From a virus, in IMG/VR virus record IMGVR_UViG_3300006048_000003: a stretch of 64,000 bases of DNA; one strand, given 5' to 3'. The notes beneath the pieces were generated by a model. It ran no database searches. It saw nothing but the letters and a program-made list of their open reading frames with translations, and was not told the origin of the DNA. The position numbers were made by a program, and so were the translations under genes. Each line of letters opens with the position of its first letter. Positions within the stretch are counted from its first letter, which is position 1. Below are positions 2,701-54,937 of this stretch, piece after piece.

Positions 2701-2736
2701 GCAGACACCCCACTGCAACGGGTTAGTAGTTGCAAC
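2701..2736 (+). repeat. Dispersed CRISPR-repeat-like unit (only copy in + sense; upstream of a + strand gene)
   Basis: GCAGACACCCCAC-TGCAAC-GGGTTAGTA-GTTGCA-AC; 25 nt before ATG 2762; identical to 30492-30527. Confidence 0.9.
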
Positions 2737-2761: not shown

Positions 2762-2995
2762 ATGCAATACATCACTGTTCACGAAATTCGAGGAGGGGAG
2801 GACACCATAGCAGGAACTATTTCCTTCGACGGAAGGCACCTGATCCCCAACCCACCCCATGACCCTGTCCTGATTCGGTTGATTGAGGATGTTCAGGGAT
2901 CTCCTTACCCCCTTGATGATTTACACGCCAAGTTCCGGGGAATCTACCTTCATACATCCCCACCCCAGAACGTCGAGAATGTCCAGCCTGCTTAG
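2762..2995 (+). CDS. Hypothetical protein (77 aa)
   Basis: ORF MQYITVHEIRGG...; isolated + strand gene preceded by a repeat unit. Confidence 0.55.
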   Translation: MQYITVHEIRGGEDTIAGTISFDGRHLIPNPPHDPVLIRLIEDVQGSPYPLDDLHAKFRGIYLHTSPPQNVENVQPA

Positions 2996-4839
2996 GTCGG
3001 GTACGCCAAATGTGCCACGTAGTGATGCCGTCCTGACATGACGTTATCGTATCGTCTCTTGACGTGACCAATCGCTTCCGGCTCAATTCCGTGATGGTGC
3101 AATTCCGATTCAATCTCTGGCCACTTTCCCGCCAATGGGGTCAGATCCGGCATCCGCAAGCGATTTTGGGCAGCGTGATCTAAGATTTCCCTGTTCGTGT
3201 GGTTATCTTCCGCCTCGTCATCGGTCGGGAACGACAAGCCGTGATCGATCAGGACCAACTTGCCTTGCGGGGACACCAACCAGTTCCCCATATGCCTATC
3301 GGTGTTGCCAATCAAGTAATCGAATACTGCTGCCCGTGCCGCGTCGGTGTCCCCATCGTACTCGCTTCCTCGTGGTGCTCGGAAAGCGACCTGACCGTCC
3401 ATGAACTGCTGAATCGATCCAATCTCGCCGTTGTGGTTCCGAACCGTCGTTGGGGGGACTAGGTCATGCATTCCAATGACGTCTGCCAGGGCTGATGCGG
3501 CAGCTTCCCTTCGGTAATGCGTTCCAGGCTGAATAGCTGACCGCAGAGGATGTTCCCCGTTGCTCGGCTTGAAGACACCCTTCATTCCCCCTGAAAGGTG
3601 AAGCAGACGCACTTCCTTCGGATCTTTGTGACCGATGGAGGATTCCTGCTCCGCGTTCAGTTGGGAGAGCATTTCCTTCTCGGGACTCAGTGGACGTCCG
3701 GATGTCGTTTGTGTGGGCTGGACGTTCTGTGGCGTGGTGGAGACGAGATTACGGAAGATATCCCCGTGGGGGTCTTCATCGTGCGATGGTGACGCTCCCA
3801 GTGCCCTGACCGTGTGAGCGTACTCGGGTCCGGACAGGGAACCCAAGTACGATTCGAGGTAGTGCTTGAAGTTAGGCTTGCGGGCTGCATCCTGAATGTT
3901 CTGAACGTGTTGGGGGACGTTGGTGGGCTGGGAATCAGGTGGAGCATCATCGTATCGACTCGCTGCGAAGAAGTCCTCTGGGATGGTTTCATTGGGACGC
4001 CAATCGACTTGGTCGGGTTCGTACTCTAACTTGTGCAAATTCCACTGATTCTGACCGCTTGGCTGGTGTGCAAAATCTGCCTCCGGGTGATCCAAAAAAG
4101 CAATCCTTCCATTTCCCGCGAAACCATTGTTGGAAGCCCATCTTTTCCAAGAGTCGTGCAGCATTCCCACACTCACCTCGGGATGATTCCCGATTACAGA
4201 CCCAAAATGCTTTCGGAGCCAGGCCTGACGTCCCATCAGTGCAGGTAGACTTTCCGCAGGAACATCCCTAGCTACAACTCGATGAGTCAGAGGACTCGAA
4301 TATTCCAATCGGGAATAACGTGAGTATCCCCACTCTTCGGAATCAGGCACAGGATAGTTCGGTTGGGGCTGAACAGGCTGTTGTGGGGGGACGTAAATTC
4401 CTGGTGCGGGTGGATTGTAAATCCGCTTCTTGGGTGCGTAAATCGGCTGATTGGTGGGCTGCACGGGTGGAGGAAGTTCACAGTCGTCGTAGAGGCTTAA
4501 TTGTTCCGGAGGTTGTGCCAGTGACCAGAACTCAGCTTTAGGTCCACTCCCACCCGCACGATTACTTCTCCTGTCCACTGTGAAATGTCCTTGATTCAGT
4601 CCGTGGGACAGAGCCGCGTCGAGTGACGGACCCCATAGTCGAATCTTCTGAACGAGAGCTTTCTTGGTGAGTTCCCCGTGATTGGCAAGCGTCTGGTGAA
4701 CCAGGGAAAACACTTCCTCCGGTGTCTTCTGTGCCCGATTGGTGACGTATCGTTTCTGAGCCGCAGCCCCCTGCTGACGCCGACGCTGATCCAAGAACGC
4801 TTGGACTTCGGGTGTCACGACTTTTCGGGGAGTGGGCAC
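2992..4839 (-). CDS. Protein with C-terminal PI3/PI4-kinase-like (HipA-like) domain, putative virion-associated effector
   Basis: GVFKP...YRREAAA...DLVPPT...GSIQQF...FDYLIGNTDRHMGNW...LVLIDHGLSF. Confidence 0.75.
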   Translation of the reverse strand: MPTPRKVVTPEVQAFLDQRRRQQGAAAQKRYVTNRAQKTPEEVFSLVHQTLANHGELTKKALVQKIRLWGPSLDAALSHGLNQGHFTVDRRSNRAGGSGPKAEFWSLAQPPEQLSLYDDCELPPPVQPTNQPIYAPKKRIYNPPAPGIYVPPQQPVQPQPNYPVPDSEEWGYSRYSRLEYSSPLTHRVVARDVPAESLPALMGRQAWLRKHFGSVIGNHPEVSVGMLHDSWKRWASNNGFAGNGRIAFLDHPEADFAHQPSGQNQWNLHKLEYEPDQVDWRPNETIPEDFFAASRYDDAPPDSQPTNVPQHVQNIQDAARKPNFKHYLESYLGSLSGPEYAHTVRALGASPSHDEDPHGDIFRNLVSTTPQNVQPTQTTSGRPLSPEKEMLSQLNAEQESSIGHKDPKEVRLLHLSGGMKGVFKPSNGEHPLRSAIQPGTHYRREAAASALADVIGMHDLVPPTTVRNHNGEIGSIQQFMDGQVAFRAPRGSEYDGDTDAARAAVFDYLIGNTDRHMGNWLVSPQGKLVLIDHGLSFPTDDEAEDNHTNREILDHAAQNRLRMPDLTPLAGKWPEIESELHHHGIEPEAIGHVKRRYDNVMSGRHHYVAHLAYPT

Positions 4840-5543: not shown

Positions 5544-5575
5544 AAAAAACCCTCAACTGCGAGGAAGAGTCTTGT

Positions 5576-5611
5576 TTTACTCCTACGAACCGGGAGTAAT
5601 CGGTGTATGCC
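5576..5611 (-). repeat. Dispersed repeat-like unit (covariant stem)
   Basis: Sense GGCATACACCGAT-TACTCC-CGGTTCGTA-GGAGTA-AA; 32 nt before GTG 5543. Confidence 0.75.
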
Positions 5612-5625
5612 CGGAACAACACTCA

Positions 5626-5661
5626 GTTGCAACTACGAACCCGTTGCAGTGGGACTTTACC
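5626..5661 (-). repeat. Dispersed repeat-like unit, tandem with 5576-5611
   Basis: Sense GGTAAAGTCCCAC-TGCAAC-GGGTTCGTA-GTTGCA-AC; contains the stop codon (5657) of the upstream ORF. Confidence 0.9.
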
Positions 5662-6169
5662 CACGCAGATTCTGGTACGCACGCATGGTCGCTTCCTGAA
5701 CCCGATCTACCAGTTCCCGCCAGGCGTCGTGATCGTTCTCGATATCGATCCCCGTGTCTCGTGCCAGACCATCCAAATATCCATTGTCATGCCCTTCATA
5801 CGGCTCGAAATCCCCTACTGATGTTTGATTGGGATACCACACACCCTGCCGCATCCCACCCGCGATCCCGGCAGCTTCGTTTTCTGAGTTGGCAGATTGG
5901 TCGTCATGAACAATCCCACCACCAACGCGAACGTGATTCCCCAAATGAGTCATCACGGAGCCATTGAGGAATCCACCATGATCCCTCAACTGCATATTGG
6001 CGAGAGCACCATCAATCCGTTTCCATGCCGCCTCGTCGGAGCGTCCGTTCTCGTCTAGCCAATCCGCGTAGACCCAATGACGGGTGGAATCATGTGGATT
6101 CTCGTCAATAGATCTCTGGAAATCACCATCGGAATGGGAGTAATTCGTGGGCTGCACGTTTGTAGTCAC
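5657..6169 (-). CDS. TIGR02996-like domain protein flanked by repeat units
   Basis: IDENPHDSTRHWVYADWLDENGRSDEA; SD GAGGAG before GTG 6169. Confidence 0.7.
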   Translation of the reverse strand: MTTNVQPTNYSHSDGDFQRSIDENPHDSTRHWVYADWLDENGRSDEAAWKRIDGALANMQLRDHGGFLNGSVMTHLGNHVRVGGGIVHDDQSANSENEAAGIAGGMRQGVWYPNQTSVGDFEPYEGHDNGYLDGLARDTGIDIENDHDAWRELVDRVQEATMRAYQNLRG

Positions 6170-6190: not shown

Positions 6191-6226
6191 TTTGCAGCTA
6201 CAAACCCACTGCACTGGGATACCCAA
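6191..6226 (-). repeat. Dispersed repeat-like unit
   Basis: Sense TTGGGTATCCCAG-TGCAGT-GGGTTTGTA-GCTGCA-AA; between portal stop (6233) and GTG 6169. Confidence 0.85.
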
Positions 6227-6232
6227 ACACTA

Positions 6233-9200
6233 CTATACGATTCCCCATTTGGCAAATACCCGATGTGTCTCCGGGAACTTCTGCTTCAGGGTTTCCCTTC
6301 CGTTGGGGGTCGCATGGGCAAGTCGGAAGGCTTCCCCGAATCCTTCGGTTGGGTCAATGGCAGAATATTCGTTCAAGTTCCCACTCTTGATTTCCTTGTG
6401 CCAGGCTTTCTTCCACTCATCCGATGTCGAGAGTTGGTGGTATCCCCCTTCCTTCCCCGCAGGATGGGACCAATCAAGTGCATGGGCGACTTCATGGGCC
6501 AGGACGCCCATCGGGTCATTTCCCCCCGCGTGGAGGTGAACGTGCCCCACATCCGGGTCGTGGAAGCCGTTGGGGGCTGTGAACTGACTGTTCGGGTCAT
6601 CCGCAGCCTGTCCCGTGGCCTTCGTCCAGTGATTCCCCACATGCTCCTGTGACTGATGCGAAACGATGTGACTCAGCCTGCCTTGTCGGAGTCGTTCGAT
6701 CACGTTCGGTGAAAAGCTCTTGAGCATGTCGAACGTCTGTCCTGCCAGGTGAGCAGCCTGATCCGGATCTTGGACGTGGTGAACCAGAGCATTCGCGATG
6801 GAAGACGCGAAGGTATCGTGATTCGTCCAATCGACGGGATGGTGAACGCTGCCAGTGTCTTGTTGCTGCTGGGGCTGTGCGTCATCGTATCGGGACGCCT
6901 GGGTCGGAGGTTGCTGTGTTCCCAGATTCTTGACGTATGCTTGCCGGAACGCTTCCTCCATCGCGTGACGGGATGGCCATGCAAATGTCTGCGTCGAATC
7001 ATCCCACCTGCCGTGATGGGGCTTCACCTTGCCGTCTGGGTCGGCCTCCCCGGTCCATGCCCACGTTTCACCGGGGATGTGATATCCAAAGTTCTCAACT
7101 CCTTTTGGGAATCTCCCGTCGTTCGTCCCATAAGCAAAACCCCCCGGTGAGGCGACAACCCACGGTCGATCCGCGAATTCCTGCTGTCGGTGTCGTGGGA
7201 TTTTCGGTGGCTTCCAGGTGGAATACCATTCCCCGAGATTCCTTCGGAATTGAGCTTCTTCTGGCTGGCCGTTCTCTTCCAGGAAGTCCGCGTATGCCCC
7301 ATGCGTGGTGTATTCGTGGGGATTCTCGTCAATCTTCCGCTCGAAGTCCTCGGCGGTAGGTTCCATGTACATAGCCGGTTTCGGATAACCCGAGAATCCC
7401 GGCTTGCGTGGTGGGGAGTGCTGGAACATCACAGAGCCAGGAATGTATTGCCCCTTCCGGTAGGGTTTGTCACGATACGTCATTGCGACCGGAGCTTGAC
7501 GACGCTCGTACCTCGTGAACCCAATCGGCTGTTGGGGTTTCCTCCGATCCTGTCCGAACGACGGAATGAAAGTGTTGTTTCCTCCAGGGAAACCCATGTA
7601 TCGCTGATGACCCAACACGGGACCATTCACCGGGGGAGTCCCTGGTTGCTTCCCTGACGAAAAGAATTGCATTGGAGGGCTGATTCCCCCTCCTGGCGGA
7701 ACAGCGTGTCCTGGCATCGGTCCGGGAATCCCCGCAGGGGAGGGAACCTGAGCCAGTTGCATTGGTGGGGCTGTGGGTTGCACGCCCATCATCATGCTCG
7801 GATCGAGGGGACTTCCAGGAGGAACCGGTCCCTGTCCTGGCATCCCGTCCGGAGGCATCACGGGGGGAAGTTGTCCCATCTGCGGCAATTCCGGCCCCTG
7901 TGGACCCATTTTGGTCACGATGGTGGGTCCACCGGGGAACGCCTGAATGACGACCTCATCCCCCTCTTCTGGTCGGGAGAAATCACCCGCTTCCATCAGT
8001 TCATCGAGCTTGATGTACCCGCCCATGCTCAAGATCAACTTGCCCGACTGGACTTTCTCTTTCTTTTCCAAGTCGGGGAGGATGCTCTTGAACCTGACCG
8101 GGAACTTTGCCCACGGGAAGTTGTACTTCTTCAGGGGAGCCAGAAGATCGTTAGTCAAAACTTCGTCAAGACGATTGGTGTCATATACTAACAACTCATC
8201 CTTCGTTGCTCTCGAAAGCTCGGCACGTCCGGTGCCTCCAAGCCCATCCCCCTTATCCGCTCCGGAGGACATGCTCTGACCAACGAACAGCCTCTCAATG
8301 TGTCGGTCGAAGAAGTCCCTCACCAAGTCTTGAAGTGCTTTCAGTCCAGCACTGTTCATCTGGATCTGTTCGACTGCATTCCAGTTCTGGTCAGGACGAC
8401 GCGGGCAAACAATTGCAGCTTTCCCAATGATTTTGTTGGCGTTGATTTCTGCCTGGAGCTTCCCGGCTGCGTCCCCTGCGGGGTAATTGAAAACGAGCAG
8501 GTCCATCTGCCCGATGGCCTGCATGTAAGTGATCATCCAGGTCAGGGCGTCGGTACGAAGGACATAGAGCCAGTACACCATTCCCCGCAAACCCAATCCC
8601 TGAATACTACCCGCTAAGATTCCCTCGAAGAAGTCGGCTGGTTCCCGAACGTGCTGATGGATCACAAACCGTTCTCGCCACTGTTCCCGTTGAAGGACAA
8701 GGGCACATCCACCCCGGTCGGTGTAACGTAGATCCCCGTCCCCCCATGTTTCAGCCTGAATGCCTTTGTCCTTGTCGAAGGATTCCTTCCAGTCCCCACC
8801 CCACTTGGCTCCGTGGTTGGCGTACCAGGAGGTAGTCATCGAATCCATCAAGATCGCGGGGATGCCATCGAAGGTGTACTGGATGGAATCGCCGTGAACG
8901 GGGCTCCACGTCTGGTCTTTGCATCGCTGATTCTTGCCGTAGACCCAGAAGTTGTTGCAGTCAGGATCACGCTGGAAGAATCCCTGCACGGCGGATCGAC
9001 CGAACCACACTCCTTGTAGAAGTGACCACTTCAACATCGAGAACTGTGGAGTAGATTCCACGATCTTGGTCATGGAATCCCGAACGTACATCTGCTTGCT
9101 GTCGCGGTCATCATCGACCTCTATCCTCCAGTCGCGGTTCATTGTCGGTAAAAGTCTCTCCCACAGAAGCCCCCACAGGAACCCATCCCGTCGCATGGCC

Positions 9201-9433
9201 CTGGCATTTACGTAACTGTCACGCATACTCTCATCAAATTTGCTGCTGAACATTCTCTGAGCTGCGTTATATACCGCCTGCACAGCATGAGATGGAGGAA
9301 CTAACAAACGACCATTACCTATCATTGGCGAGCCGTCTGGAAGCGTGAAGTCCTCCAGCTTGAAGTTCTTCCGAGGCGGGACAGCCCTGAAAACCTCTAA
9401 GTCTTTTGCCAGGTCGTCAATGACGGTGGGCAT
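6233..9433 (-). CDS. Portal protein (DUF935/Mu gp29-like) with C-terminal TIGR02996-like and HEXXH metallopeptidase-like domains
   Basis: GLGLRGMVYWLY...IERLFVGQSMSS resembles the DUF935 core; then a Pro/Gly linker, YADFLEENG and VLAHEVAHALD...EGFGEAF. Confidence 0.7.
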   Translation of the reverse strand: MPTVIDDLAKDLEVFRAVPPRKNFKLEDFTLPDGSPMIGNGRLLVPPSHAVQAVYNAAQRMFSSKFDESMRDSYVNARAMRRDGFLWGLLWERLLPTMNRDWRIEVDDDRDSKQMYVRDSMTKIVESTPQFSMLKWSLLQGVWFGRSAVQGFFQRDPDCNNFWVYGKNQRCKDQTWSPVHGDSIQYTFDGIPAILMDSMTTSWYANHGAKWGGDWKESFDKDKGIQAETWGDGDLRYTDRGGCALVLQREQWRERFVIHQHVREPADFFEGILAGSIQGLGLRGMVYWLYVLRTDALTWMITYMQAIGQMDLLVFNYPAGDAAGKLQAEINANKIIGKAAIVCPRRPDQNWNAVEQIQMNSAGLKALQDLVRDFFDRHIERLFVGQSMSSGADKGDGLGGTGRAELSRATKDELLVYDTNRLDEVLTNDLLAPLKKYNFPWAKFPVRFKSILPDLEKKEKVQSGKLILSMGGYIKLDELMEAGDFSRPEEGDEVVIQAFPGGPTIVTKMGPQGPELPQMGQLPPVMPPDGMPGQGPVPPGSPLDPSMMMGVQPTAPPMQLAQVPSPAGIPGPMPGHAVPPGGGISPPMQFFSSGKQPGTPPVNGPVLGHQRYMGFPGGNNTFIPSFGQDRRKPQQPIGFTRYERRQAPVAMTYRDKPYRKGQYIPGSVMFQHSPPRKPGFSGYPKPAMYMEPTAEDFERKIDENPHEYTTHGAYADFLEENGQPEEAQFRRNLGEWYSTWKPPKIPRHRQQEFADRPWVVASPGGFAYGTNDGRFPKGVENFGYHIPGETWAWTGEADPDGKVKPHHGRWDDSTQTFAWPSRHAMEEAFRQAYVKNLGTQQPPTQASRYDDAQPQQQQDTGSVHHPVDWTNHDTFASSIANALVHHVQDPDQAAHLAGQTFDMLKSFSPNVIERLRQGRLSHIVSHQSQEHVGNHWTKATGQAADDPNSQFTAPNGFHDPDVGHVHLHAGGNDPMGVLAHEVAHALDWSHPAGKEGGYHQLSTSDEWKKAWHKEIKSGNLNEYSAIDPTEGFGEAFRLAHATPNGRETLKQKFPETHRVFAKWGIV

Positions 9434-9451
9434 GATGAGTCACTAAATAAG

Positions 9452-9492
9452 AACAAGCGGGTCGCGGGTTGTGGTCCCGACGCCCGCTTGCT
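9452..9492 (-). terminator. Putative intrinsic terminator after the CRISPR/repeat region
   Basis: Sense CAAGCGGG...CCCGCTTG stem followed by TTCTTATTT. Confidence 0.55.
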
Positions 9493-9547
9493 ACGAATTG
9501 TACCATCTCGATGTGAAGAAACTACAGAGAAGTGACGTGCTTTCGCT

Positions 9548-9583
9548 TCTACTTCAATCGACCCGAAGCAGTGGGATTGTCAG
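9548..9583 (-). repeat. Dispersed repeat-like unit (covariant stem)
   Basis: Sense CTGACAATCCCAC-TGCTTC-GGGTCGATT-GAAGTA-GA. Confidence 0.75.
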
Positions 9584-9598
9584 ATACTACAGCGACGA

Positions 9599-9634
9599 GT
9601 TGCAACTACTAACCCGCCACGGTGGATTGCTTGT
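9599..9634 (-). repeat. Dispersed repeat-like unit, tandem with 9548-9583
   Basis: Sense ACAAGCAATCCAC-CGTGGC-GGGTTAGTA-GTTGCA-AC; the TAG stop of ORF 9609 lies in the loop. Confidence 0.8.
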
Positions 9635-9908
9635 TCAGCTTCGGATCGACCTTCGTGGGTGTCGGTACGGGTTCCACCGTCGTCTTCGACTTGATGTAGT
9701 CCGCACACGCCTTCAATAACTGCGACGTCTGGCCGTAGAAGAACGCGGGGGAAGGATGTCCTGCCATCAGAGAACCACCCAGAGAGGCTTCTGCTTGCCG
9801 GTCGATGCCGGATGCCGTCTCGTCACACATTTTGATGAGCACAGCCGGATCAGTCAGATCCGGTGCTCCGGGGAAATCCAATCGAGGAAGCGGGGATGTC
9901 TCAGTCAC
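9609..9908 (-). CDS. Hypothetical protein (99 aa) lying between repeat units
   Basis: SD CAGGAG before GTG 9908; ORF track gives 9609..9983. Confidence 0.6.
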   Translation of the reverse strand: MTETSPLPRLDFPGAPDLTDPAVLIKMCDETASGIDRQAEASLGGSLMAGHPSPAFFYGQTSQLLKACADYIKSKTTVEPVPTPTKVDPKLNKQSTVAG

Positions 9909-9939
9909 GAAAATGGTCTCCTGTTGTTGAAATTTACTG

Positions 9940-9975
9940 TCTGCTTCAATTGACCCGAAGCAGTGGGATTGTCCG
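9940..9975 (-). repeat. Dispersed repeat-like unit (covariant stem)
   Basis: Sense CGGACAATCCCAC-TGCTTC-GGGTCAATT-GAAGCA-GA. Confidence 0.8.
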
Positions 9976-9997
9976 CCAGACACGATCCTTCATCGCC

Positions 9998-10033
9998 TTC
10001 ACCCCTACAAACCGGGAGCAATCGGTTGTTCTT
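9998..10033 (-). repeat. Dispersed repeat-like unit, tandem with 9940-9975
   Basis: Sense AAGAACAACCGAT-TGCTCC-CGGTTTGTA-GGGGTG-AA; the TAG stop of ORF 10005 lies in the loop. Confidence 0.75.
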
Positions 10034-10286
10034 GACTCTTCGCCAACGTCTCCAGTGTATTCCCACCCGACAGCAAAGCACAGACGATCTTTTCCACGAA
10101 GAGTGGGGAAAGTTCATACTGGCCATGCTGATTCAGGGCGTAATACACATTCTTCCCTGACGGTTGGAGAGGCTGTTCCCCTTCCACCTTCGGAAGGGTG
10201 ACGCCCTTGAAGTTCTGGAGTTGGGCAAGAATCTTGGCGAGTCGTTGGGACTCTTGCCCCACAGCTAACATATCAATCGGATTCAT
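10005..10286 (-). CDS. Hypothetical protein (93 aa) directly after the last array repeat
   Basis: SD AAAGGAG before ATG 10286. Confidence 0.65.
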   Translation of the reverse strand: MNPIDMLAVGQESQRLAKILAQLQNFKGVTLPKVEGEQPLQPSGKNVYYALNQHGQYELSPLFVEKIVCALLSGGNTLETLAKSQEQPIAPGL

Positions 10287-10314
10287 TCATTCTCCTTTGG
10301 TGGATCGACTGCCG

Positions 10315-10789
10315 GTTGCAACTACTAACCCGTTGCACTGGGATTGTTACGTCTCTTCTGTGTGAGGCACCAACCCAGCGGCTTGTGGTTGCAACTACAA
10401 ACCGGTTGCACTCGGTATGTCACGCCGACGCCGAGCAGTTGGCGGCACTCGAACGCAAGTTGCAACTACAAACCGGTTGCACTGGGATTGTTACCTAGCT
10501 TCGACTTCCGTGCCGCATTCATTGCTTCGCCCCTCGATTGCAACTACTAACCCGTTGCACTGGGATTGTTACGATGCTTGTGCTGCTTGTGGTTGTCCAC
10601 TCGAAGATGTTGCAACTACTAACCCGTTGCACTGGGATTGTTACCGAAATAAAGGTTCGGGAACTCTGCCATAGGCGCCGTTGCAACTACTAACCCGTTG
10701 CACTGGGATTGTTACAGCCGTCGCCAGGTCCGGCGGCACGAGGAGGCCGGTGTGTTGCAACTACTAACCCGTTGCACTGGGATTGTTAC
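10315..10789 (-). CRISPR. CRISPR array: 7 repeats (36 nt), 6 spacers (35-42 nt)
   Basis: Sense consensus GTAACAATCCCAGTGCAACGGGTTAGTAGTTGCAAC. Repeats start (+ coordinates) at 10315, 10388, 10459, 10537, 10609, 10680 and 10754. The most variant copies are leader-distal; the leader/promoter lies between the array and the cas gene. Confidence 0.97.
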
Positions 10790-10793
10790 TGCC

Positions 10794-10822
10794 ACTCTAC
10801 AACACGCCCGCTTCCCAAGCAA
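10794..10822 (-). promoter_or_regulatory. Sigma70-like promoter of the array
   Basis: TTGCTT-17-TAGAGT; the -10 element ends 4 nt before the first repeat. Confidence 0.65.
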
Positions 10823-10911
10823 ATTATTCCTGTTCCGCGAGCGGTTCCCAATTTGACCCATGATCCTTCACATTGAACCCCTATCAAGCGGGGGGTCATC
10901 GCCTGGAAATC

Positions 10912-12816
10912 CTAGACGCGAGCGGGTACTTTCGCCCCAGAAGCCCCCAAAGCCCTGTTTAACAAGTTCGTGGCGGCATTCACTGCCCGATCCCTCTTTT
11001 CACCACCACAGGACTCGCAGCGAATCCAGCGGCCCGACTTCGGGTGGTCACACGATTCCCCACACTGACAACACGTCGTCACGATGTTCCTGGCGGACTC
11101 AGTAACTTCGTTCATGTATCTTGTTATCTCGTCCCGGAGTTGGGCACAGGAAGACAGTGCCCGATATCGCTTGTTGACGATATCGTTCCCGTTCTCGACT
11201 TCAGGATTCTCAGCCAACTTGTTCCAGTCAATTTCCGCGATCACCACGTCCTTGTACTGATAGCTCAGGTCAATCGCCACTTTTCGGAAGAAATCCTTCC
11301 GCCAGTTCTTGATCTTGTCCCGCTTGTGTGCCCTCCAGTCGCACAGGTGTTTGCTCTGCAAACGCCCCCCGGTGTACTGATTCCTTCCCGTGGTTGGGTT
11401 GAGTTGGATTCTCCCCCACATTCTTTGGAAGATCTCTTCGTCTCCGGGAATCCGATGATCCTTCCACCACCAAATGAGCCACATGAACCTGTCGGCACTT
11501 CGCCACTGAATCAGAGTCTGGGCACGCTCGGTCCACTCTTCGGGAAGGGGATTCGGGTAGTTCACGAACCAGTCGACCAGTTCAGCCCTTTCAGCTTCAA
11601 ACAAGGTATCCCGAATGGACTGGAGGGTGTCAAGATAGGACCACCCCTCCACCAATTCTTTGGGAATACGGACGGTTCCGGTCACACCATCATCACCAAC
11701 CCACTCGGTAACGCGGATTTCCCCATCAATCAGACGCCAACCCAACGCCACCGCGACAGTCCCTTCCTGTGCCCGATCCTGTCCGGCCGGGTGATACGTC
11801 CACGCATCCCGTGCGATGTCGAACTGAACATCCCACCGGTAATGAGTTCCAATCTTCCTGCGGGACAGGTGAACCCACTTCACTTCACCGTCTTCGGGGA
11901 GAGGACGCGACATGACAGCCGGAATCGACGCCATCACCGGCTTTCCCTTTTCGTCCGACGATACACGAAAGTGGATGACGACGTACTTCGGATGGGGAGC
12001 CGTCAGCGGTGGTTGATACGTCCTTTCGATCCAGCAATTCGTGTTGGGGGTGAAGACATCACAGGTCCGAAGAGATGACCCCCCCACGTGAGCGAACGTT
12101 GGCTTCTTGCTGCGTGGATGGATCTTGGGATTGCCTTTGGAGTCCAAAACTGGCTCCTTCGGGGATGTCTTGTCGGGCTTCCGTTGGAACTGAACCGAGA
12201 TAACTTCCTCCCCCCGCCACGACTTGAACTTCGGGGGTGGGCCGGTTCTCTTTACACGTCCCACCACTTGCAGGGAAGTAGCCCAGTACAACCCACCTTC
12301 CACCGCCGCGTTGCGGGCATCTGCCTTTCGTTGTTCAAACGACTTATCGTTGTCCTTCAGGTCGGCTTTCACCTTCGGGTCGGCAAACGCGGCGTCCCGC
12401 TGATCAGAATAGAACTCCCATGCCTGGGACACCACACGCTTCTGAGCGTTGATTTGCTCCACTAGTTCGGGGTCTGACATCAACTGCCGGTTCTGACTGT
12501 TCGACTGGCTGAGTTCATCCCGAAGCTCCTGGAGGCGTTCCTGCTGCTCCTGGGCTGCGTTGTGGAGGGTCGTCAGAGCCGGAAAGTGTCTGACCAGGAT
12601 TGGGTCGATGGCTTCCCTGCGGGCACGCTCGATTTCTACCAACTTGTTCTGGAACTGGTGAGCGAGCTTCATCTGGGTAACTGCCAGGTCGTGTCCATCG
12701 AACCTCTGACGGAGGGCTTTCGTGCCGTCAGGATTGATTTCACGCGGACCGGAAAGGAACCCCCGGCAACCGTAGTTGTACTTGCGAGTCGGTTTGCTCT
12801 TGTTACCGAATGCCAT
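10912..12816 (-). CDS. cas12m: Cas12m-like (type V-M/V-U1) effector, 634 aa, predicted nuclease-dead
   Basis: N-terminal YNYG...QMKLAHQFQNKLVEIERARR, GLYWAT and PKFKSWRGE...SVQFQ resemble Cas12m. RuvC-I VAVALGWR, RuvC-II VVIAEIDW, RuvC-III DRAVNAATNL, CxxC/CxxC zinc ribbon. Adjacent to the array; SD GGAG before ATG 12816. Confidence 0.85.
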   Translation of the reverse strand: MAFGNKSKPTRKYNYGCRGFLSGPREINPDGTKALRQRFDGHDLAVTQMKLAHQFQNKLVEIERARREAIDPILVRHFPALTTLHNAAQEQQERLQELRDELSQSNSQNRQLMSDPELVEQINAQKRVVSQAWEFYSDQRDAAFADPKVKADLKDNDKSFEQRKADARNAAVEGGLYWATSLQVVGRVKRTGPPPKFKSWRGEEVISVQFQRKPDKTSPKEPVLDSKGNPKIHPRSKKPTFAHVGGSSLRTCDVFTPNTNCWIERTYQPPLTAPHPKYVVIHFRVSSDEKGKPVMASIPAVMSRPLPEDGEVKWVHLSRRKIGTHYRWDVQFDIARDAWTYHPAGQDRAQEGTVAVALGWRLIDGEIRVTEWVGDDGVTGTVRIPKELVEGWSYLDTLQSIRDTLFEAERAELVDWFVNYPNPLPEEWTERAQTLIQWRSADRFMWLIWWWKDHRIPGDEEIFQRMWGRIQLNPTTGRNQYTGGRLQSKHLCDWRAHKRDKIKNWRKDFFRKVAIDLSYQYKDVVIAEIDWNKLAENPEVENGNDIVNKRYRALSSCAQLRDEITRYMNEVTESARNIVTTCCQCGESCDHPKSGRWIRCESCGGEKRDRAVNAATNLLNRALGASGAKVPARV

Positions 12817-12844: not shown

Positions 12845-12880
12845 TTCGCAGCTACCAACCCGCTGCGATGGGAACAGGCA
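12845..12880 (-). repeat. Repeat-like unit in the cas12m 5' UTR
   Basis: Sense TGCCTGTTCCCAT-CGCAGC-GGGTTGGTA-GCTGCG-AA; a perfect alternative 6-bp stem between the -10 element and the SD. Confidence 0.8.
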
Positions 12881-14542: not shown

Positions 14543-16551
14543 TTTCGTGCTCCTGTCGCAAGAACGGTGTCTATCAACGAAGGTGCCCGATTGAGTTCCT
14601 GCTCCGACGCTAACTTCTCGTCTATTTCCTTGAGTGGAATCACGGACATTCGGCAGTAGGTATCGTCCACTCCAAGAGAAATGAACAGATTGCTTCCGTG
14701 AACCACAGCCCCACCAGGCCAGCAAACGAACCGCTTCACCACGTTGTCATTGTCTTTGCTGTCTGGCCAAAGCAAAGGAGTTGGTGTCTGTCTCCAGACA
14801 TTGAACGGTGGTTCGGGATTGAATGCCACACAGCCAGCGGAATACACACTGCCTTGCAGACGCTTCCGGCACCCGTGTACAATTGACCACATCTCGTAAC
14901 GCTGTTCCTTCTCACTCCACACTTTGATCGGGGACGCTCCACCTCGAATGACCCCACCTGCCCAGGGCAACTTGTTCGGAGTACGCCACGTCTGGCGGTC
15001 GGACATCACGATCATTTCCGGCTTGTGTGCGTAAACCCAGTGAATTTTCCCGTTGTGCTCCCACGCGACCCAGTTCTTCTCATACTTGTTAGAATTTGGT
15101 GACTCGAATACGAAGGTGTCCTCGATGCTTTTAAGGTCATCTGCGAACCGGACGTATCCGACCTGCACCAGCTTCGGGGGATACCCGTCCGGCAAACTGA
15201 ATGAAGCGTGGAGTCTGCCTTCGTACAGAAACAGTCGGGGGTCTTCGAGTCGGGTGGCCTGAGCGTGTTTCGATGCCAGCGAGGATACAGCCGTCACAGA
15301 CCATTCCCCAAGCCAGTCTTCCTGGGTGTTCTGCAACACCCAAATTCCAGTACGGCTATGACCCCAACTGTCCCGCGTGGCGAGGATCAATTGCCCCCGA
15401 TACTCTGCCACCGAACAATTAAAGTGTCCGTCCGGAACGGGAAGTCGAGTTCTTTCTACGTCAGGTGTCACGAACTGTCGGTATTCACACGTCTCGCAGG
15501 ATCGCACAGGAACGTCGGCTTCCTTGATTTTGGCCCCCACCTTCGTGAAGCAGTGATCTCCGTAACGACCACACTTCGCCAGAGGTATCGTCCTTCCCCC
15601 TTCCAGGACACCGATTTCGTTGCTCCACTCCGACCGGTACATACAGGGAAGTGGGTCCGAATATTGGAGTATCACCTGATCCATCTCCGGGGTGATGTGA
15701 AGAGGATCTTGAATCTCCCGTCCCGTCAGGAGTGCCTGGACGTCCCCGTGGTGCCTGCTCTCCGTGACACCGAGGGGTAACGATGGTTCGCTGCTACTAA
15801 CCCGCTGCGATGGGTCTGGGGCAGTTCGTGTGACATTTCCATCGGAATTAACCCCCGATAGTGGGTTGTCGCTAACGTCGATACAGGATGGTGCCCATTC
15901 CGGTTTCCCGGTGCCTGCGTAGTCGAATGTTCGCTGCGTTACAATGGACGGGAGGACCGCACACCAGTTCAAAAGTCCCTTCTTCAGGACACGTTCCCAG
16001 AGTTGCTGATCCAGGTTCCGGTGTGCCGCCCGCATGTGCTCCAGAAGAACCGGGAGAGCACGTCTGCGGAGCATAATGGCGTGTGTGCCGAAAGGTTCGT
16101 TTAGTCTGCACAGACGCGAATCAGGCAATCCAATGCGTTCCGTCACCTTGTTCCAGCAATTAGGCTGCACTTCTGCGGAGCCGAGAAACACCAGATCCCA
16201 CTCCGGGAAGTCGGAATAGAGTTGGCGTTGGAGCAGTTCCAGTTCAGTGTGGTAGTTCTCAGGGAGGGAGACGTCGTCCTCGAAGATGATGTATTCGTGA
16301 TTGTCGCGATGAACCCACTCCTGACCCGACAACCAGATGTGCTGCCAGAGATTCCACGTCGAAAGGTTGAGAGAGACGTGACCAGACGGCAGGTGCTTTC
16401 CCGGCTCGTATTCGAGTGTGGTGGAAAGTCCCCAAGTACGTCCGTGGCTGGCCTTCCAGTACGTCGCGTCAATCCCCCGCTCTGCAAGGTGTTCCTTGCA
16501 GGCTTGGGTTCGTTCGGGAAGCTCTTCGCAGTGAATCACATAATACTTCAC
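14539..16551 (-). CDS. GT25-like glycosyltransferase fused to a GH130/GH43-like beta-propeller
   Basis: N-terminal YYVIHCEELPER...IIFEDDV; C-terminal FNCSV...LEDPRLF...EKNWV...IRGGASP...CWPGG; GTG start 1 nt after the previous stop. Confidence 0.7.
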   Translation of the reverse strand: MKYYVIHCEELPERTQACKEHLAERGIDATYWKASHGRTWGLSTTLEYEPGKHLPSGHVSLNLSTWNLWQHIWLSGQEWVHRDNHEYIIFEDDVSLPENYHTELELLQRQLYSDFPEWDLVFLGSAEVQPNCWNKVTERIGLPDSRLCRLNEPFGTHAIMLRRRALPVLLEHMRAAHRNLDQQLWERVLKKGLLNWCAVLPSIVTQRTFDYAGTGKPEWAPSCIDVSDNPLSGVNSDGNVTRTAPDPSQRVSSSEPSLPLGVTESRHHGDVQALLTGREIQDPLHITPEMDQVILQYSDPLPCMYRSEWSNEIGVLEGGRTIPLAKCGRYGDHCFTKVGAKIKEADVPVRSCETCEYRQFVTPDVERTRLPVPDGHFNCSVAEYRGQLILATRDSWGHSRTGIWVLQNTQEDWLGEWSVTAVSSLASKHAQATRLEDPRLFLYEGRLHASFSLPDGYPPKLVQVGYVRFADDLKSIEDTFVFESPNSNKYEKNWVAWEHNGKIHWVYAHKPEMIVMSDRQTWRTPNKLPWAGGVIRGGASPIKVWSEKEQRYEMWSIVHGCRKRLQGSVYSAGCVAFNPEPPFNVWRQTPTPLLWPDSKDNDNVVKRFVCWPGGAVVHGSNLFISLGVDDTYCRMSVIPLKEIDEKLASEQELNRAPSLIDTVLATGARK
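15787..15822 (-). repeat. Repeat-like unit embedded in frame in an inter-domain linker
   Basis: Sense GCCCCAGACCCAT-CGCAGC-GGGTTAGTA-GCAGCG-AA; canonical loop; closely resembles 12845-12880. Confidence 0.65.
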
Positions 16552-17479: not shown

Positions 17480-17515
17480 TTCCCACCTACGAACCCGATG
17501 AGTTGGGTTGACTCT
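17480..17515 (-). repeat. Dispersed repeat-like unit, tandem with 17434-17469
   Basis: Sense AGAGTCAACCCAA-CTCATC-GGGTTCGTA-GGTGGG-AA; all 6 pairs valid with G-U; the TAG stop (17487) lies in the loop. Confidence 0.65.
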
Positions 17516-17738
17516 CCAGAAAATCAATTTCACTGTCGATCCACTTCTGCCCCTCTCCCCGAATCTCGTCAATGTCAAATATGGTAGACCCAATATCCGA
17601 AATGTTAACTTGGAAGTATGTCCTTTCCGGACCACACCAAGAAAACCGGATGTGATGTCCACGATAAGCCATCACCACTTCCGGGGAATGTGGTGCGTTG
17701 GGCATCATCAGTAGCCAATCGTAGAATTCCGACGTCAT
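17487..17738 (-). CDS. Hypothetical protein
   Basis: 83-aa ORF. Confidence 0.55.
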   Translation of the reverse strand: MTSEFYDWLLMMPNAPHSPEVVMAYRGHHIRFSWCGPERTYFQVNISDIGSTIFDIDEIRGEGQKWIDSEIDFLESQPNSSGS

Positions 17739-37719: not shown

Positions 37720-37786
37720 CGAAACTTCACTCCCGTTACGAACTATACAACTGTTCTAGTCGAATGCAAATCACTTTTTGAAAAGA

Positions 37787-42620: not shown

Positions 42621-42647
42621 GTCGCCCCTCACAAATGTGGTATCGGT

Positions 42648-42676
42648 AGTATGGGACACGAATTGCTGAAAGGCAA
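42648..42676 (-). promoter_or_regulatory. Sigma70-like promoter of thyX
   Basis: TTGCCT-17-CATACT. Confidence 0.55.
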
Positions 42677-42693
42677 ATTTTACAAAGGGGAAA

Positions 42694-43818: not shown

Positions 43819-43828
43819 GGGAGTTCTC

Positions 43829-45650: not shown

Positions 45651-45652
45651 AC

Positions 45653-48953: not shown

Positions 48954-50099
48954 TTAAACGGAACCGTATTTTTTTCTTTTCTTGGCTCCGGGTTGAGGAG
49001 TCTTGCCCCTCCCATTCAGGAAATGCCCCCACTTGCCCGCGTAGGGACCACGAGTCACCTTCTTCTTCCAGACGTACAAGCCATACACCATCCGCAGTCG
49101 GGTGGGGACGTGGTTGTTGACGGTGTGGGTCAGGGACTTCTCAGTCTTCTTCGGAAACTTGAGTCCCAGAAGCCTGACAAGCTGTGCCTTCGTGACGCAG
49201 GAATCCTTCTGCCCTGCCTCTTTCAGAATACGAACGATTTCGTAGGCCACCCCTTTGGTCGGTACAGGGAGGGGGCTGGCGTCGTAGTGAGCCACCATCT
49301 CATCCCAGGTCATGTCCTTGTTGCCGACACGGTAGACACCCTTCTTCCGCTTCTTCGCCTTCAGTGGTTTGCGGCGGACGTACTTCCGCTTCGGTTTGGG
49401 CTGTGGGGGTGGGATGAGAAGTTCCGGCTCTGTGCAGGTGCCTGAGAACAGTTCATTGATCTCGTCATCGAATTCTGTCTCGATTTCCTCGATGACACGA
49501 TCGACCTCTTCATCGGGGGCTTCAATCACGGAAACCGCTGGATCACGGTTAATATTCAAATTCGTATCCAGCAGTCCTTCCACCCCACTCGCCCGTTCTT
49601 CGCTCCTATCAACCGGGAGCAATCGGTCTGATTCAACCGTCCCTGAAAGAGGAGGAGTCTCCACGACATTCGACCCGTCGTGGTGGGTTTGAAGAGGAGT
49701 TGGTTCCAGTGGAGTGTCCCCCTCCTCCAAAAGATCGGGGATGCCATTCACGACACTGTCACCACTTTCCAAAGCAACGTGATCTTCCGAACCATCGGAA
49801 TTCACCAGAACAACTTCCACAGTCGCCGGGGGAGCTTGGGATTCCCGAACTTCTGGCTCGACGTCGTCAACCACTTCCACCGTCCCTCCTCCAAATTGAT
49901 GAGCGTAAATCTTATCGTAAAGGTCCAAATCGTCCTGGGACGACTTCAAGGACTCCACCTGTTCCGGTGATTCCAGGAACTTGGTAATTCCCGTTCCCTC
50001 GTTCACGCGAACGGACAGCTTGCCCACTGGCCACGATCCTGCGTCGGGGACTCCGATGGTTCCCAGAAGTTTCACCAGTTCTGAACGAGATACCAACAT
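48954..50099 (-). CDS. Hypothetical acidic protein with basic, winged-helix-like C-terminus
   Basis: Start re-called at MLVSRSE. Confidence 0.55.
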   Translation of the reverse strand: MLVSRSELVKLLGTIGVPDAGSWPVGKLSVRVNEGTGITKFLESPEQVESLKSSQDDLDLYDKIYAHQFGGGTVEVVDDVEPEVRESQAPPATVEVVLVNSDGSEDHVALESGDSVVNGIPDLLEEGDTPLEPTPLQTHHDGSNVVETPPLSGTVESDRLLPVDRSEERASGVEGLLDTNLNINRDPAVSVIEAPDEEVDRVIEEIETEFDDEINELFSGTCTEPELLIPPPQPKPKRKYVRRKPLKAKKRKKGVYRVGNKDMTWDEMVAHYDASPLPVPTKGVAYEIVRILKEAGQKDSCVTKAQLVRLLGLKFPKKTEKSLTHTVNNHVPTRLRMVYGLYVWKKKVTRGPYAGKWGHFLNGRGKTPQPGAKKRKKYGSV

Positions 50100-54390: not shown

Positions 54391-54426
54391 TTGACTCCTA
54401 CAAACCGGGAGCAATCGGATTACTTT
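54391..54426 (-). repeat. Dispersed repeat-like unit
   Basis: Sense AAAGTAATCCGAT-TGCTCC-CGGTTTGTA-GGAGTC-AA; contains the TAA stop (54420); 14 nt before ATG 54376. Confidence 0.75.
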
Positions 54427-54662
54427 TCATCAACGGGACGGGTCGTTGAAGTGCGGACCCCTTTTATGAAACCACGTCCGAACCTTCCGGTCCTGTCACC
54501 GACCTGCTCCCCGATATTCTCCGCGTCAGGAAGAATAATCTTGGGTTTTGGTTCTGGTGGGGGAGTGGGCTTCCAGGGCTGAAACACGAACAGGAACAAA
54601 CTGACAACGAACACAACACCCAACAAAATCAGCCATCCAGGGGGTTTTTCATCGTTTCTCAT
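54420..54662 (-). CDS. Small membrane protein
   Basis: One transmembrane segment. Confidence 0.55.
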   Translation of the reverse strand: MRNDEKPPGWLILLGVVFVVSLFLFVFQPWKPTPPPEPKPKIILPDAENIGEQVGDRTGRFGRGFIKGVRTSTTRPVDEK

Positions 54663-54670
54663 GGAAATCC

Positions 54671-54907
54671 TCACTTCGACTTCTTGCGTTTCCGTGTCTT
54701 CTTGGGTTCCGGGGGAGGTGGATTGACGAACTCCTCCACCTGGATTTCCAGTGCCTCGTACCGCTGCATGTCCTCTTCCCAAGCTCTTTTACAAAGTCGG
54801 TACTGAACCGGAGTCAAAACGAACCGCTGCTTCACTTTGACACGGAATTCAAAGACTTTCTGCCAATCTTCAGCGGACAAGAAGGTTTTCTTGCGTGTGA
54901 CATCCAT
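54671..54907 (-). CDS. Hypothetical protein
   Basis: SD CAGGAG before ATG 54907. Confidence 0.55.
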   Translation of the reverse strand: MDVTRKKTFLSAEDWQKVFEFRVKVKQRFVLTPVQYRLCKRAWEEDMQRYEALEIQVEEFVNPPPPEPKKTRKRKKSK

Positions 54908-54937
54908 TCGTGGGCACTCCTGTTCATGCGTCTGGGA

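What the first reader, a model, noticed from the sequence alone, without database searches (positions are those of the whole stretch)
9548..10350. The array runs on into repeat-ORF-repeat cassettes
Seen: last array repeat, 93-aa ORF, repeat pair, 99-aa ORF, repeat pair, terminator-like hairpin. Each ORF starts about 30 nt after one repeat and its TAG lies in the loop of the next. The same bracketing occurs for 5657..6169 and for the gene pair 54420..54907. Inference: genes sit like giant spacers in a CRISPR transcript, so processing could yield monocistronic mRNAs. Alternatively, the repeats could be recombination points for gaining and losing accessory genes, as in cassette arrays. The two small ORFs are candidate accessory or modulator proteins of the effector.
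Basis: partly seen in the sequence, partly recalled or inferred. Interest (0 to 1): 0.72.

Follow-up and report, generated by a model that had tools for sequence, protein, structure and literature searches.

The report
Phage genes bracketed by Cas12m handles
In a soil phage, the CRISPR array of a nuclease-dead Cas12m runs straight into two small head-module genes that sit between copies of the CRISPR repeat hairpin, so the Cas protein probably binds or cuts ordinary phage messages at these sites; this would be a new use of a CRISPR protein but has not been tested at the bench.

Summary
On the minus strand the order is cas12m (12816..10912), a leader with promoter-like sites, 7 repeats (10789..10315), ORF93, two repeat-like hairpins, ORF99, two more hairpins, then a conserved GC hairpin with a U-rich tail, and the portal gene.

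- **One correction.** The 1066-aa gene is a Mu-type portal. The effector is the 634-aa Cas12m upstream of the array.
- **The hairpins are selected RNA.** They keep the Cas12m crRNA scaffold (stem plus pseudoknot) through compensatory changes, on the gene-sense strand.
- **They belong to a larger set.** About 24 solitary copies lie at gene junctions in the window.
- **The layout is conserved.** It recurs in four relatives, each with its own spacers.
- **The two ORFs are real but are not Cas12m accessories.** Homologues sit next to the portal in a relative (L037) with no cas12m, array or hairpin in the 12 kb held.
- **Indel evidence is mixed.** Some breakpoints between close relatives fall inside hairpins and others do not.

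Best reading (about 0.5): Cas12m binds, and perhaps cuts 5' of, these handles in a shared CRISPR-mRNA transcript. A cut at every handle would remove the stop codons of ORF93 and ORF99. No RNA data could be obtained.

The parts
12845..12880 (-). Solitary repeat-like handle 28 nt upstream of the cas12m ATG
   Evidence: CM hit of 33.3 bits, E 2.6e-6. Equivalent hairpins precede cas12m in L001, L002 and L005.
10912..12816 (-). cas12m, 634 aa, with Ala at the RuvC catalytic positions
   Evidence: PDB 23vw_A Cas12m, E 2.2e-43. An identical 634-aa called protein is P0001. A357, A527 and A611 are nearly invariant in the 30-member clade.
10823..10887 (-). Leader with two sigma-70-like promoter matches
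   Evidence: Consensus scan. The leader is almost identical in L033, although the flanks are about 86% identical.
10315..10789 (-). CRISPR array: 7 repeats of 36 nt and 6 spacers of 35-42 nt
   Evidence: The stem-pseudoknot sits at the 3' end of the repeat on the minus strand, the type V orientation.
10005..10286 (-). ORF93, a small two-helix protein; its last 8-9 codons and its TAG are encoded by the next handle
   Evidence: Gene call. Homologues at 92, 74, 59 and 39% identity. Homologue in the Cas12m-free locus L037, hhalign probability 96%. AF2 pLDDT 72.
9998..10033 (-). Handle overlapping the ORF93 stop (variant stem, pseudoknot CCG/CGG)
   Evidence: CM E 1.4e-6. The orthologous site shows three different compensated stems in the window, L033 and L035.
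9940..9975 (-). Handle 31 nt upstream of the ORF99 start
   Evidence: CM E 1.2e-7. Intact in L033; its 5' half is deleted in L035.
9609..9908 (-). ORF99, a small two-helix protein from a family of mostly 85-120-aa proteins
   Evidence: Gene call. 96 representatives in the profile search. Homologues near portals in L036 and L037. AF2 pLDDT 71.
9599..9634 (-). Handle overlapping the ORF99 stop (weak stem with three G-U pairs; perfect in L033)
   Evidence: CM E 3.4e-6.
9548..9583 (-). Last handle of the unit
   Evidence: CM E 8.1e-7. Conserved in L033 and L035.
9497..9524 (-). Conserved promoter-like motif TAGTTT-N16-TACAAT
   Evidence: A single match in the window against 0.01 expected. Identical in L033 and L035. 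L001 has TAGTTT-N17-TATAAT at the same place.
9444..9492 (-). GC-rich hairpin (about 16 bp) plus U-rich tail, 10 nt before the portal ATG: the likely end of the CRISPR-ORF transcript and/or a 5' stem-loop of the portal message
   Evidence: RNA fold. Near-invariant in L033 and L035. An equivalent hairpin is present in L001.
6233..9433 (-). Portal protein, 1066 aa (not the effector)
   Evidence: PF06074 Portal_Mu, E 4.5e-28.
6191..6226 (-). Handle 21 nt upstream of ORF170
   Evidence: CM E 3.9e-8. L001 has a handle at the same junction after its portal.
5657..6169 (-). ORF170, the second bracketed gene
   Evidence: Gene call. Its stop lies at positions 3-5 of handle 5626.
5576..5661 (-). Handle pair 5661..5626 and 5611..5576 (14-nt gap), followed by a terminator-like hairpin at 5565..5550
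54391..54973 (-). Third bracketed unit: handle 54973..54938, genes 54907..54420, handle 54426..54391
   Evidence: CM E 8.6e-8 and 3.4e-5. An ATG lies 30 nt after the first handle and 14 nt after the second.

Best explanation
ORF93 and ORF99 are old residents of the phage head module, lying just upstream of the portal. In the lineage that acquired a nuclease-dead Cas12m and its array, cas12m and the array lie directly upstream of them. Copies of the crRNA handle now occupy the gene junctions.

The array and the two genes are most likely made as one transcript. It would start at the leader promoter (about 10851..10823) and run to the conserved hairpin at 9492..9453.

Cas12m recognises each handle as it recognises its own repeats. 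It binds there and probably cuts just 5' of the scaffold. The result would be crRNAs from the array and handle-capped messages from the genes.

Each downstream ribosome-binding site lies about 12-22 nt after a handle, where a guide would sit. A bound Cas12m could therefore set the translation or stability of that message.

In the tandem pairs, the first handle (which holds the upstream stop codon) would stay as the 3' end of the upstream message. The second would head the next message.

Shown here: the anatomy, the RNA-level selection, the match to the Cas12m scaffold, the conservation in relatives, and the absence from L037, a relative with no cas12m in the stretch held.

Inferred: co-transcription, Cas12m binding, cleavage, and the direction of any regulatory effect.
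For: 1. The handles are real and numerous. The covariance model finds 7 array repeats plus 24 solitary copies at E <= 0.07. All are in the sense of the local gene, including the single plus-strand copy, which precedes a plus-strand gene.
2. The RNA structure is under selection. Stem and pseudoknot are 97% paired, with 18 cells changed on both sides, and 0 of 500 shuffles reach this. Across 44 elements the non-Watson-Crick pairs are 33 G-U against 7 A-C, which fits only the sense-strand RNA.
3. The conserved part matches what Cas12m holds. Positions 6-36 are conserved and positions 1-5 are not. In the Cas12m2 structure the scaffold is a pseudoknot plus stem, and nucleotides -36 to -30 are disordered (PMC10442227).
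4. Cas12m proteins process their own pre-crRNA within the repeat, independently of RuvC (PMC11013384). An all-Ala RuvC therefore need not abolish processing.
5. Position is consistent. At 13 junctions the proximal handle lies 14-34 nt before the start codon. About 0.7 would be expected by chance; this is my estimate from about 85 genes in 64 kb.
6. The layout is conserved. Array, ORF93, handles, ORF99, handles and hairpin recur in L033/L034, L035 and L001, with different spacers. At the orthologous ORF93-stop site the stem reads CTCC/GGGG, CAGC/GCTG or CAAC/GTTG, while the encoded peptide changes.
7. The handles track the array. L001's array repeats and six of its solitary handles share a flipped pseudoknot pair (G..C instead of C..G) that no window copy has.
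8. L037 has the same gene triad, with no cas12m, array or handle in the 12.3 kb held. The model also finds no handle in L036 (11.3 kb), where the ORF99 homologue lies five genes upstream of the portal.
9. No terminator-like or promoter-like site lies between the array and ORF93.
Against: - No transcript data exist for this phage. Neither co-transcription nor cleavage is shown.
- If every handle were cut upstream of its scaffold, ORF93 and ORF99 would lose their last 6-9 codons and their stop codons. The same holds for the 83-aa gene at 17738..17487.
- Positions 1-5, where a cut is expected, are not conserved in the solitary copies.
- The handles are dispensable at single junctions. L035 lacks half of one handle and has a truncated last repeat. 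In a 60%-identity relative the next ORF starts 3 nt after the ORF93 stop (no DNA held).
- Gene conversion within a genome could produce the shared repeat flavour without any protein. One handle class (stem GCTCC/GGAGY) is the same in the window and in L001.
- More distant Cas12m phages (L002, L005, L006) show handles only in arrays and before cas12m within +-10 kb.
Confidence: 0.5

Rival explanations
1. The hairpins serve mainly as recombination points. Short shared sequences at gene junctions let related phages swap, gain and lose accessory genes, as in cassette arrays.
For: - L035 has a deletion whose two ends lie inside adjacent handles, leaving a chimeric unit. L033 lacks 12 nt of the short gap.
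- L001 carries an extra ORF109 that ends in a handle, and has 4 handles where the window has 2.
- Gene content differs between the window and L001 at handle-bearing junctions: portal to kinase, and the 84-aa to 77-aa interval.
- Handles 2701 and 30492 are identical over exactly 36 nt, including the otherwise variable first 8 nt.
Against: - Compensatory stem and pseudoknot changes, and the G-U excess on the sense strand, show selection on an RNA fold. A recombination role does not require that.
- No integrase or other site-specific recombinase was found among about 45 ORFs scanned.
- The strongest divergence in ORF93 (L035) is internal to the gene, not at the handles.
- ORF93 and ORF99 are ancestral syntenic genes, not mobile cargo.
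Confidence: 0.15
2. The solitary handles are decoys. They soak up a Cas12m, either the host's (an RNA anti-CRISPR) or the phage's own to tune its free level, and have no role in the flanking genes.
For: Phage solitary repeat units that mimic CRISPR repeats and sequester Cas proteins are known (PMC10651486). There are many copies in the window, and all keep the protein-bound part of the scaffold.
Against: - The handles match the phage's own array and follow its flavour in L001.
- They sit at a fixed distance before start codons and always in gene sense. A free-standing decoy does not need this.
- No host genome or host V-M system could be examined.
Confidence: 0.1
3. The hairpins are Cas12m-independent RNA elements, acting as stability, RNase or attenuation signals. 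They only share ancestry with the CRISPR repeat.
For: - Structured intergenic repeats are common in bacteria and phages (general knowledge).
- Several junctions work without them in relatives.
- The hairpin classes with other stems differ from the array repeat at up to 12 of 36 positions.
Against: - What is conserved is the pseudoknot plus stem of the Cas12m scaffold, not just any hairpin.
- The model found none in L036 or L037, 23.6 kb in all with no cas12m.
- They lack U-tracts, so they are not intrinsic terminators.
Confidence: 0.1
4. The tandem pairs are mini-arrays. Their 10-25-nt gaps would act as short guides that send Cas12m to DNA targets for transcriptional control, like crRNA-like regulators.
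For: Mini-arrays with short or partly matching spacers regulate cas and cargo genes in other systems (10.1101/2023.03.03.530964; 10.1101/2023.03.10.532045). Cas12m acts by binding DNA (PMC11013384).
Against: - No match of 14 nt or more to any gap or post-handle sequence was found outside other handles, in the window or in relatives, beyond chance level.
- Gap lengths differ between close relatives (22 nt against 10 nt) and the gap is lost in L035.
- The handle ends (AAC, GAA, AGA) do not resemble the T-rich PAM that I recall for Cas12m.
Confidence: 0.07

Closest known systems
Type V-M CRISPR-Cas12m (MmCas12m, Cas12m2, GoCas12m; PMC10442227, PMC11013384)
   Same: Homologous effector (E 2e-43 to a solved Cas12m). 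36-nt repeats whose 3' part folds into a pseudoknot plus stem. No adaptation genes nearby. A RuvC site unable to cut DNA. Self-processing of pre-crRNA is reported for the family.
   Different: This system is phage-encoded. Ala is nearly invariant at the RuvC positions across the clade. The repeat scaffold is copied about 24 times outside the array, in front of ordinary genes, and the array is continuous with protein-coding genes.
Solitary repeat units and mini-arrays in cas loci (Shmakov et al., 10.1101/2023.03.03.530964; CreR, 10.1101/2023.03.10.532045)
   Same: Stand-alone repeat-like sequences occur near the effector gene, including directly upstream of it (reported for 34-49% of V-A loci).
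   Different: The known cases are one or two units within the cas locus. Where understood, they act as guides with partial matches to promoters. Here the units are spread over at least 52 kb at gene junctions, on the mRNA itself, with no detectable target.
RNA anti-CRISPRs (Racrs; PMC10651486)
   Same: Repeat mimics encoded as solitary units in a phage genome.
   Different: Racrs mimic the host's repeats and are separate small RNAs. These units mimic the phage's own array and are embedded in 5' UTRs and gene ends.
Engineered single transcripts that combine an mRNA with a Cas12a array (recalled from the literature, not checked here)
   Same: One RNA carries both coding sequence and repeat-flanked units, and the effector releases the parts by cutting at repeats.
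   Different: That design is synthetic. This would be a natural counterpart, and with a DNA-binding-only effector.
Integron gene cassettes with attC sites
   Same: Small promoterless genes in one orientation, each followed by an imperfect hairpin repeat.
   Different: No integrase was found. The fold is constrained on the sense RNA strand, not as single-stranded DNA. The two genes are ancestral and syntenic rather than mobile.
Myxophage MV-1 Cas12m locus (10.64898/2026.09.14.751636)
   Same: A phage-encoded Cas12m next to an array, without cas1, cas2 or cas4.
   Different: MV-1 is described as keeping a D-E-D RuvC triad and an ordinary array of 8 spacers. No dispersed handles or genes within the array transcript are reported.

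Membership tests
Type V-M CRISPR-Cas | Cas12m-family effector | tested here: met
   phmmer against PDB chains: 23vw_A Cas12m at E 2.2e-43, and Cas12m2 8hhl at E 1.2e-4.
Type V-M CRISPR-Cas | Adjacent CRISPR array with varying spacers | tested here: met
   7 repeats and 6 spacers. The spacers differ in L033 and L035, although the flanks are about 86-90% identical.
Type V-M CRISPR-Cas | crRNA scaffold made of a pseudoknot plus a stem at the 3' end of the repeat | tested here: met
   Pairs 15-17/26-28 and 20-25/35-40 are 97% paired, with compensatory changes. This matches the description of the Cas12m2 crRNA.
Type V-M CRISPR-Cas | Non-canonical RuvC site with no DNA cleavage | tested here: inconclusive
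   In the alignment to 23vw_A, Ala replaces Asp at RuvC-I and RuvC-III, and probably replaces the RuvC-II Glu. Activity cannot be tested here.
Type V-M CRISPR-Cas | Effector processes its own pre-crRNA within the repeat | not testable with these tools
   Reported for MsCas12m and Cas12m2. No RNA data exist for this phage.
Integron-like cassette array | Site-specific (tyrosine) recombinase next to the array | tested here: not met
   No integrase or recombinase family was found in about 45 ORFs of the window.
Integron-like cassette array | Hairpin sites acting as folded DNA, with cassettes that differ between relatives at those sites | tested here: inconclusive
   The G-U excess (33 against 7) points to RNA, not DNA. 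Some indels do end in handles, but the two ORFs are syntenic even in the Cas12m-free locus L037.
crRNA-like regulators (scaRNA, CreA, CreR, mini-arrays) | Spacer with partial complementarity to a promoter or gene target | tested here: not met
   The gap and post-handle sequences have no match of 14 nt or more beyond chance, other than to other handles. Only the window and the fetched loci were searched.
RNA anti-CRISPR (Racr) | Solitary unit that mimics the repeats of the host's CRISPR system | not tested
   No host genome is held. The units match the phage's own array.

The most novel reading that the evidence does not exclude
A phage lineage has turned a nuclease-dead Cas12m and its crRNA handle into a way of punctuating and controlling its own operons. 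The CRISPR array and structural genes share transcripts. Cas12m binds or cuts at about 20 handle-marked gene junctions, so a Cas effector would act as a guide-independent, handle-directed regulator of mRNAs.
Probability: 0.4. Interest if true: 0.85.

Novelty: new variant of a known kind. Interest (0 to 1): 0.7.

Why it matters
If Cas12m reads these handles on messages, CRISPR effectors can be recruited for post-transcriptional control simply by copying the repeat scaffold in front of genes, with no guide-target pairing. That would add a mode to the known regulatory uses of CRISPR parts: tracr-L, scaRNA, CreA/CreR and Racrs.

It would also be a natural counterpart of engineered transcripts that mix arrays and mRNAs. 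It offers a compact RNA tag with its binding protein for tools.

The case also shows how an array can fuse with neighbouring genes after cas12m enters a phage head module.

The two small proteins should not be pursued as Cas12m partners on the present evidence.

Tried and rejected
- Whole genome: none is held for this window. L001's record is not searchable.

**Searches for relatives that found nothing useful**
- IMG/VR scans with the repeat and with Cas12m found nothing.
- The GTDB genome scan with the Cas12m alignment found nothing.
- The JGI metagenome scan gave only distant relatives at 27-35% identity, plus one locus I already had.
- In the phage collection, Cas12m matched only Virus Rctr197k at 25% identity, and the portal matched nothing.

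**Protospacer searches**
- The whole array against the phage and plasmid collections gave no match.
- Two 20-mers from spacers against IMG/VR gave no match.
- The targets and the PAM therefore remain unknown.

**ORF93 and ORF99**
- No Pfam or PHROG hit.
- The ESM Atlas gave nothing usable.
- Foldseek against the PDB with the ORF93 model gave only generic helical hairpins at E > 0.6. I read nothing into them.
- The predicted complex of Cas12m, ORF93 and ORF99 gave no verdict, with a score of 0.03 against a mark of 0.32. This is neither for nor against binding.

**Ideas rejected**
- The 1066-aa gene as the effector: it is the portal.
- The handles as intrinsic terminators: they have no U-tract and the scan does not flag them.
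Full report
**What is at 9548-10350**

All genes in this part of the window run on the minus strand.

- The 36-nt repeat, read on that strand, has its hairpin at the 3' end. This is the type V orientation.
- The array has 7 repeats (10789..10315) and 6 spacers of 35-42 nt.
- Upstream lies a 634-aa gene (12816..10912). It matches a solved Cas12m at E 2.2e-43, and independent gene calling gives the same protein letter for letter (P0001).
- Between array and portal the order is: last repeat (a perfect copy), 28 nt with a GGAG, ORF93 (10286..10005), handle 10033..9998, 22 nt, handle 9975..9940, 31 nt with an AGGAG, ORF99 (9908..9609), handle 9634..9599, 15 nt, handle 9583..9548.
- Then follow a promoter-like motif (9524..9497), a 16-bp GC hairpin with a U-rich tail (9492..9444), and the portal ATG at 9433.
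- For ORF170 (6169..5657) and for 54907..54420 the bracketing is also real. There the upstream stop lies at the 5' edge of the next handle.

**The hairpins are real and are selected as RNA**

- A covariance model built from the repeat and its variants finds 7 array repeats and 24 solitary copies in the window at E <= 0.07.
- Twenty-three of the solitary copies are on the minus strand. The one plus-strand copy (2701) precedes a plus-strand gene.
- On an alignment of 22 copies, the 6-bp stem and a 3-bp pseudoknot (upstream CCC or CCG with loop GGG or CGG) are 97% paired. Eighteen cells are changed on both sides, and no shuffle of 500 reaches these values.
- Over 44 elements from four phages, the non-Watson-Crick pairs are 33 G-U against 7 A-C. 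The fold therefore works only on the gene-sense RNA.
- Positions 6-36 of the solitary copies are conserved and positions 1-5 are not.
- This matches the Cas12m2 structure. There the scaffold is a pseudoknot stacked on a stem, and the first seven repeat nucleotides are disordered (PMC10442227).
- The solitary copies therefore keep what the protein holds.

**The effector**

- In the alignment to the solved Cas12m, Ala replaces the RuvC-I and RuvC-III aspartates, and probably the RuvC-II glutamate.
- These Ala residues are nearly invariant in a clade of 30 proteins, all in phage-like contexts.
- Cas12m proteins bind DNA without cutting it. They process pre-crRNA within the repeat in a Mg-dependent, RuvC-independent way (PMC11013384).
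- The loss of RuvC residues therefore does not argue against processing.

**Relatives with cas12m**

- The same phage occurs at 100% identity in at least three samples.
- L033/L034 (about 86-92%), L035 (about 89%) and L001 (Cas12m 68%) all show the same order: array, ORF93 homologue, handles, ORF99 homologue, handles, promoter-like motif, hairpin. Their spacers differ.
- The number and state of the handles vary. Between the two ORFs there are two in the window and two in L033, where the gap is 12 nt shorter. L001 has four.
- L035 has one handle plus a half. A deletion there has both ends inside handles and leaves a chimeric unit.
- L035 also has a truncated last repeat.
- In a 60%-identity relative the next ORF starts 3 nt after the ORF93 stop, so no intact handle fits there (no DNA is held).
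- L001 has an extra ORF109 that ends in a handle.
- At the orthologous ORF93-stop site the stem is rewritten three ways with full compensation, while the encoded C-terminal peptide changes. The RNA is constrained there, not the protein tail.
- L001's array repeats and six of its solitary handles share a flipped pseudoknot pair that no window copy has.
- More distant Cas12m phages (L002, L005, L006) have ordinary arrays. Within 10 kb they show handles only in front of cas12m.

**Relatives without cas12m**

- A profile search places ORF99 in a family with 96 representatives, mostly of 85-120 aa.
- Two members could be seen in context. In L037 the order is: a homologue of the window's 670-aa protein (44% identity), a 92-aa ORF93 homologue (hhalign probability 96%, E 2e-9), a 103-aa ORF99 homologue (41%), then the portal (49%).
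- In L037 an ordinary 28-nt spacer separates the two small genes, and the 12.3 kb held contains no cas12m and no array.
- The covariance model finds no hit at E <= 1 in L037, nor in L036.
- The two small genes are therefore ancestral head-module genes. In the Cas12m-bearing lineage, cas12m and the array lie upstream of them.
- The handles were seen only in loci that carry cas12m. This rests on few, related lineages.
- The ORFs were not found in the other Cas12m loci examined.
- Both model as two-helix hairpins without informative matches.

**How it most likely works**

- The leader carries two sigma-70-like sites and is almost unchanged in L033.
- Nothing that looks like a terminator or promoter separates the array from ORF93.
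- The first strong hairpin with a U-rich tail comes after handle 9548 and is nearly invariant in relatives.
- I therefore read 10850..9450 as one transcription unit of about 1.4 kb.
- Cas12m should bind every handle in it. If it cuts 5' of the scaffold, as reported for its family, the array gives crRNAs and each gene message begins with a bound handle.
- The ribosome-binding site of each such message then lies where a guide would lie.
- That geometry recurs at 13 junctions in the window, at 14-34 nt, and in front of cas12m itself (12845).
- It suggests control of translation or stability. The sign of the effect is unknown.

**A difficulty**

- The handles that hold the stop codons of ORF93 and ORF99 would, if cut, leave stop-less messages.
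- The tandem pairs offer a way out: a cut before the second handle leaves the first as a protected 3' end.
- Terminating ribosomes would also melt the first handle.
- This is inference, and it needs end-mapping.

**Rivals**

- A primary role in recombination explains some indels, but not the RNA-level covariation or the ancestral synteny. No recombinase was found. I keep recombination as a likely side effect.
- Decoys for a host Cas12m cannot be excluded without the host genome. They do not explain the fixed distance to start codons.
- Cas12m-independent RNA signals fit poorly with the exact scaffold and with the absence from L036 and L037.
- Short guides from the tandem gaps found no targets.

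**Comparison and novelty**

- The locus is a type V-M system by effector, array and scaffold.
- Stand-alone repeats near effector genes are known, and so are phage repeat mimics.
- A phage Cas12m was first reported in a 2026 preprint, with an ordinary array.
- My literature searches found no description of an array continuous with protein genes, or of handles placed before many genes of the same genome.
- I class this as a new variant of a known kind.
I reached the first three independently before that look-up.

**Limits**

There are no RNA data, no host genome, no PAM and no protospacers. Only one relative at intermediate distance (L001) covers more than a few kb.

Noticed in passing
L001:11811-11952: The first spacer of L001's array is complementary to the 3' end of its own cas12m gene: a 47-nt inverted repeat, 81% complementary, around the first repeat. 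TTC lies on the PAM side. This is either a self-targeting or autoregulatory spacer, or a long RNA stem. The window has no equivalent.
   Followed up: partly
window 2701-2736 and 30492-30527: Two handles on opposite strands, 28 kb apart, are identical over exactly 36 nt, including the first 8 nt that vary among other copies. The identity stops at the unit's edges. This suggests recent copying of a unit of exactly repeat length.
   Followed up: partly
window 9444-9524 (also L033, L035, L001): The promoter-like motif TAGTTT-N16/17-TAnAAT, followed at once by a GC hairpin and a U-rich tail, is more conserved than its flanks and sits 10 nt before the portal ATG. It may be both the terminator of the CRISPR-ORF unit and the start of the portal message.
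   Followed up: partly
window 6049-6159 and the N-termini of genes starting at 17410, 19120, 30415 and 54376; also inside the portal and the 1966-aa gene: A domain of about 40 aa (ADWL..G motif, phrog_18306) recurs at the start of several proteins, many of them preceded by handles. It may be a virion-targeting or repeat-companion module, and it hints at a planctomycete-like host.
   Followed up: no
window 31000-47000: The replication module carries no handle at all. It holds a RecA-like protein, a gp32-like protein, a clamp-loader ATPase, a methylase, DNA polymerase A, ThyX and UDG. Handles cluster in the head and packaging region (2.7-30.5 kb) and in 47.5-55 kb, as expected for a regulon tied to one temporal class.
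   Followed up: partly
window 15787-15873 and 49599-49695: Two handle pairs lie inside long open frames: the 670-aa gene and the ORF 50099..48954. They are in frame and add no stop. L001's orthologue of the 670-aa gene has no handle there, and the site falls in a diverged linker.
   Followed up: partly
window 6233-6530 (portal C-terminus) and 2992-4839: The last 90 residues of the portal protein match Pfam ATLF (E 1.5e-7). The neighbouring 615-aa protein has a PI3/PI4-kinase-like motif (E 2e-11). These are unusual cargo domains in a head module.
   Followed up: no
L005:9453-9969: A more distant Cas12m phage has a second, degenerate array upstream of cas12m. Its last repeat ends 31 nt before the cas12m ATG, so cas12m itself sits like a terminal long spacer.
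   Followed up: no
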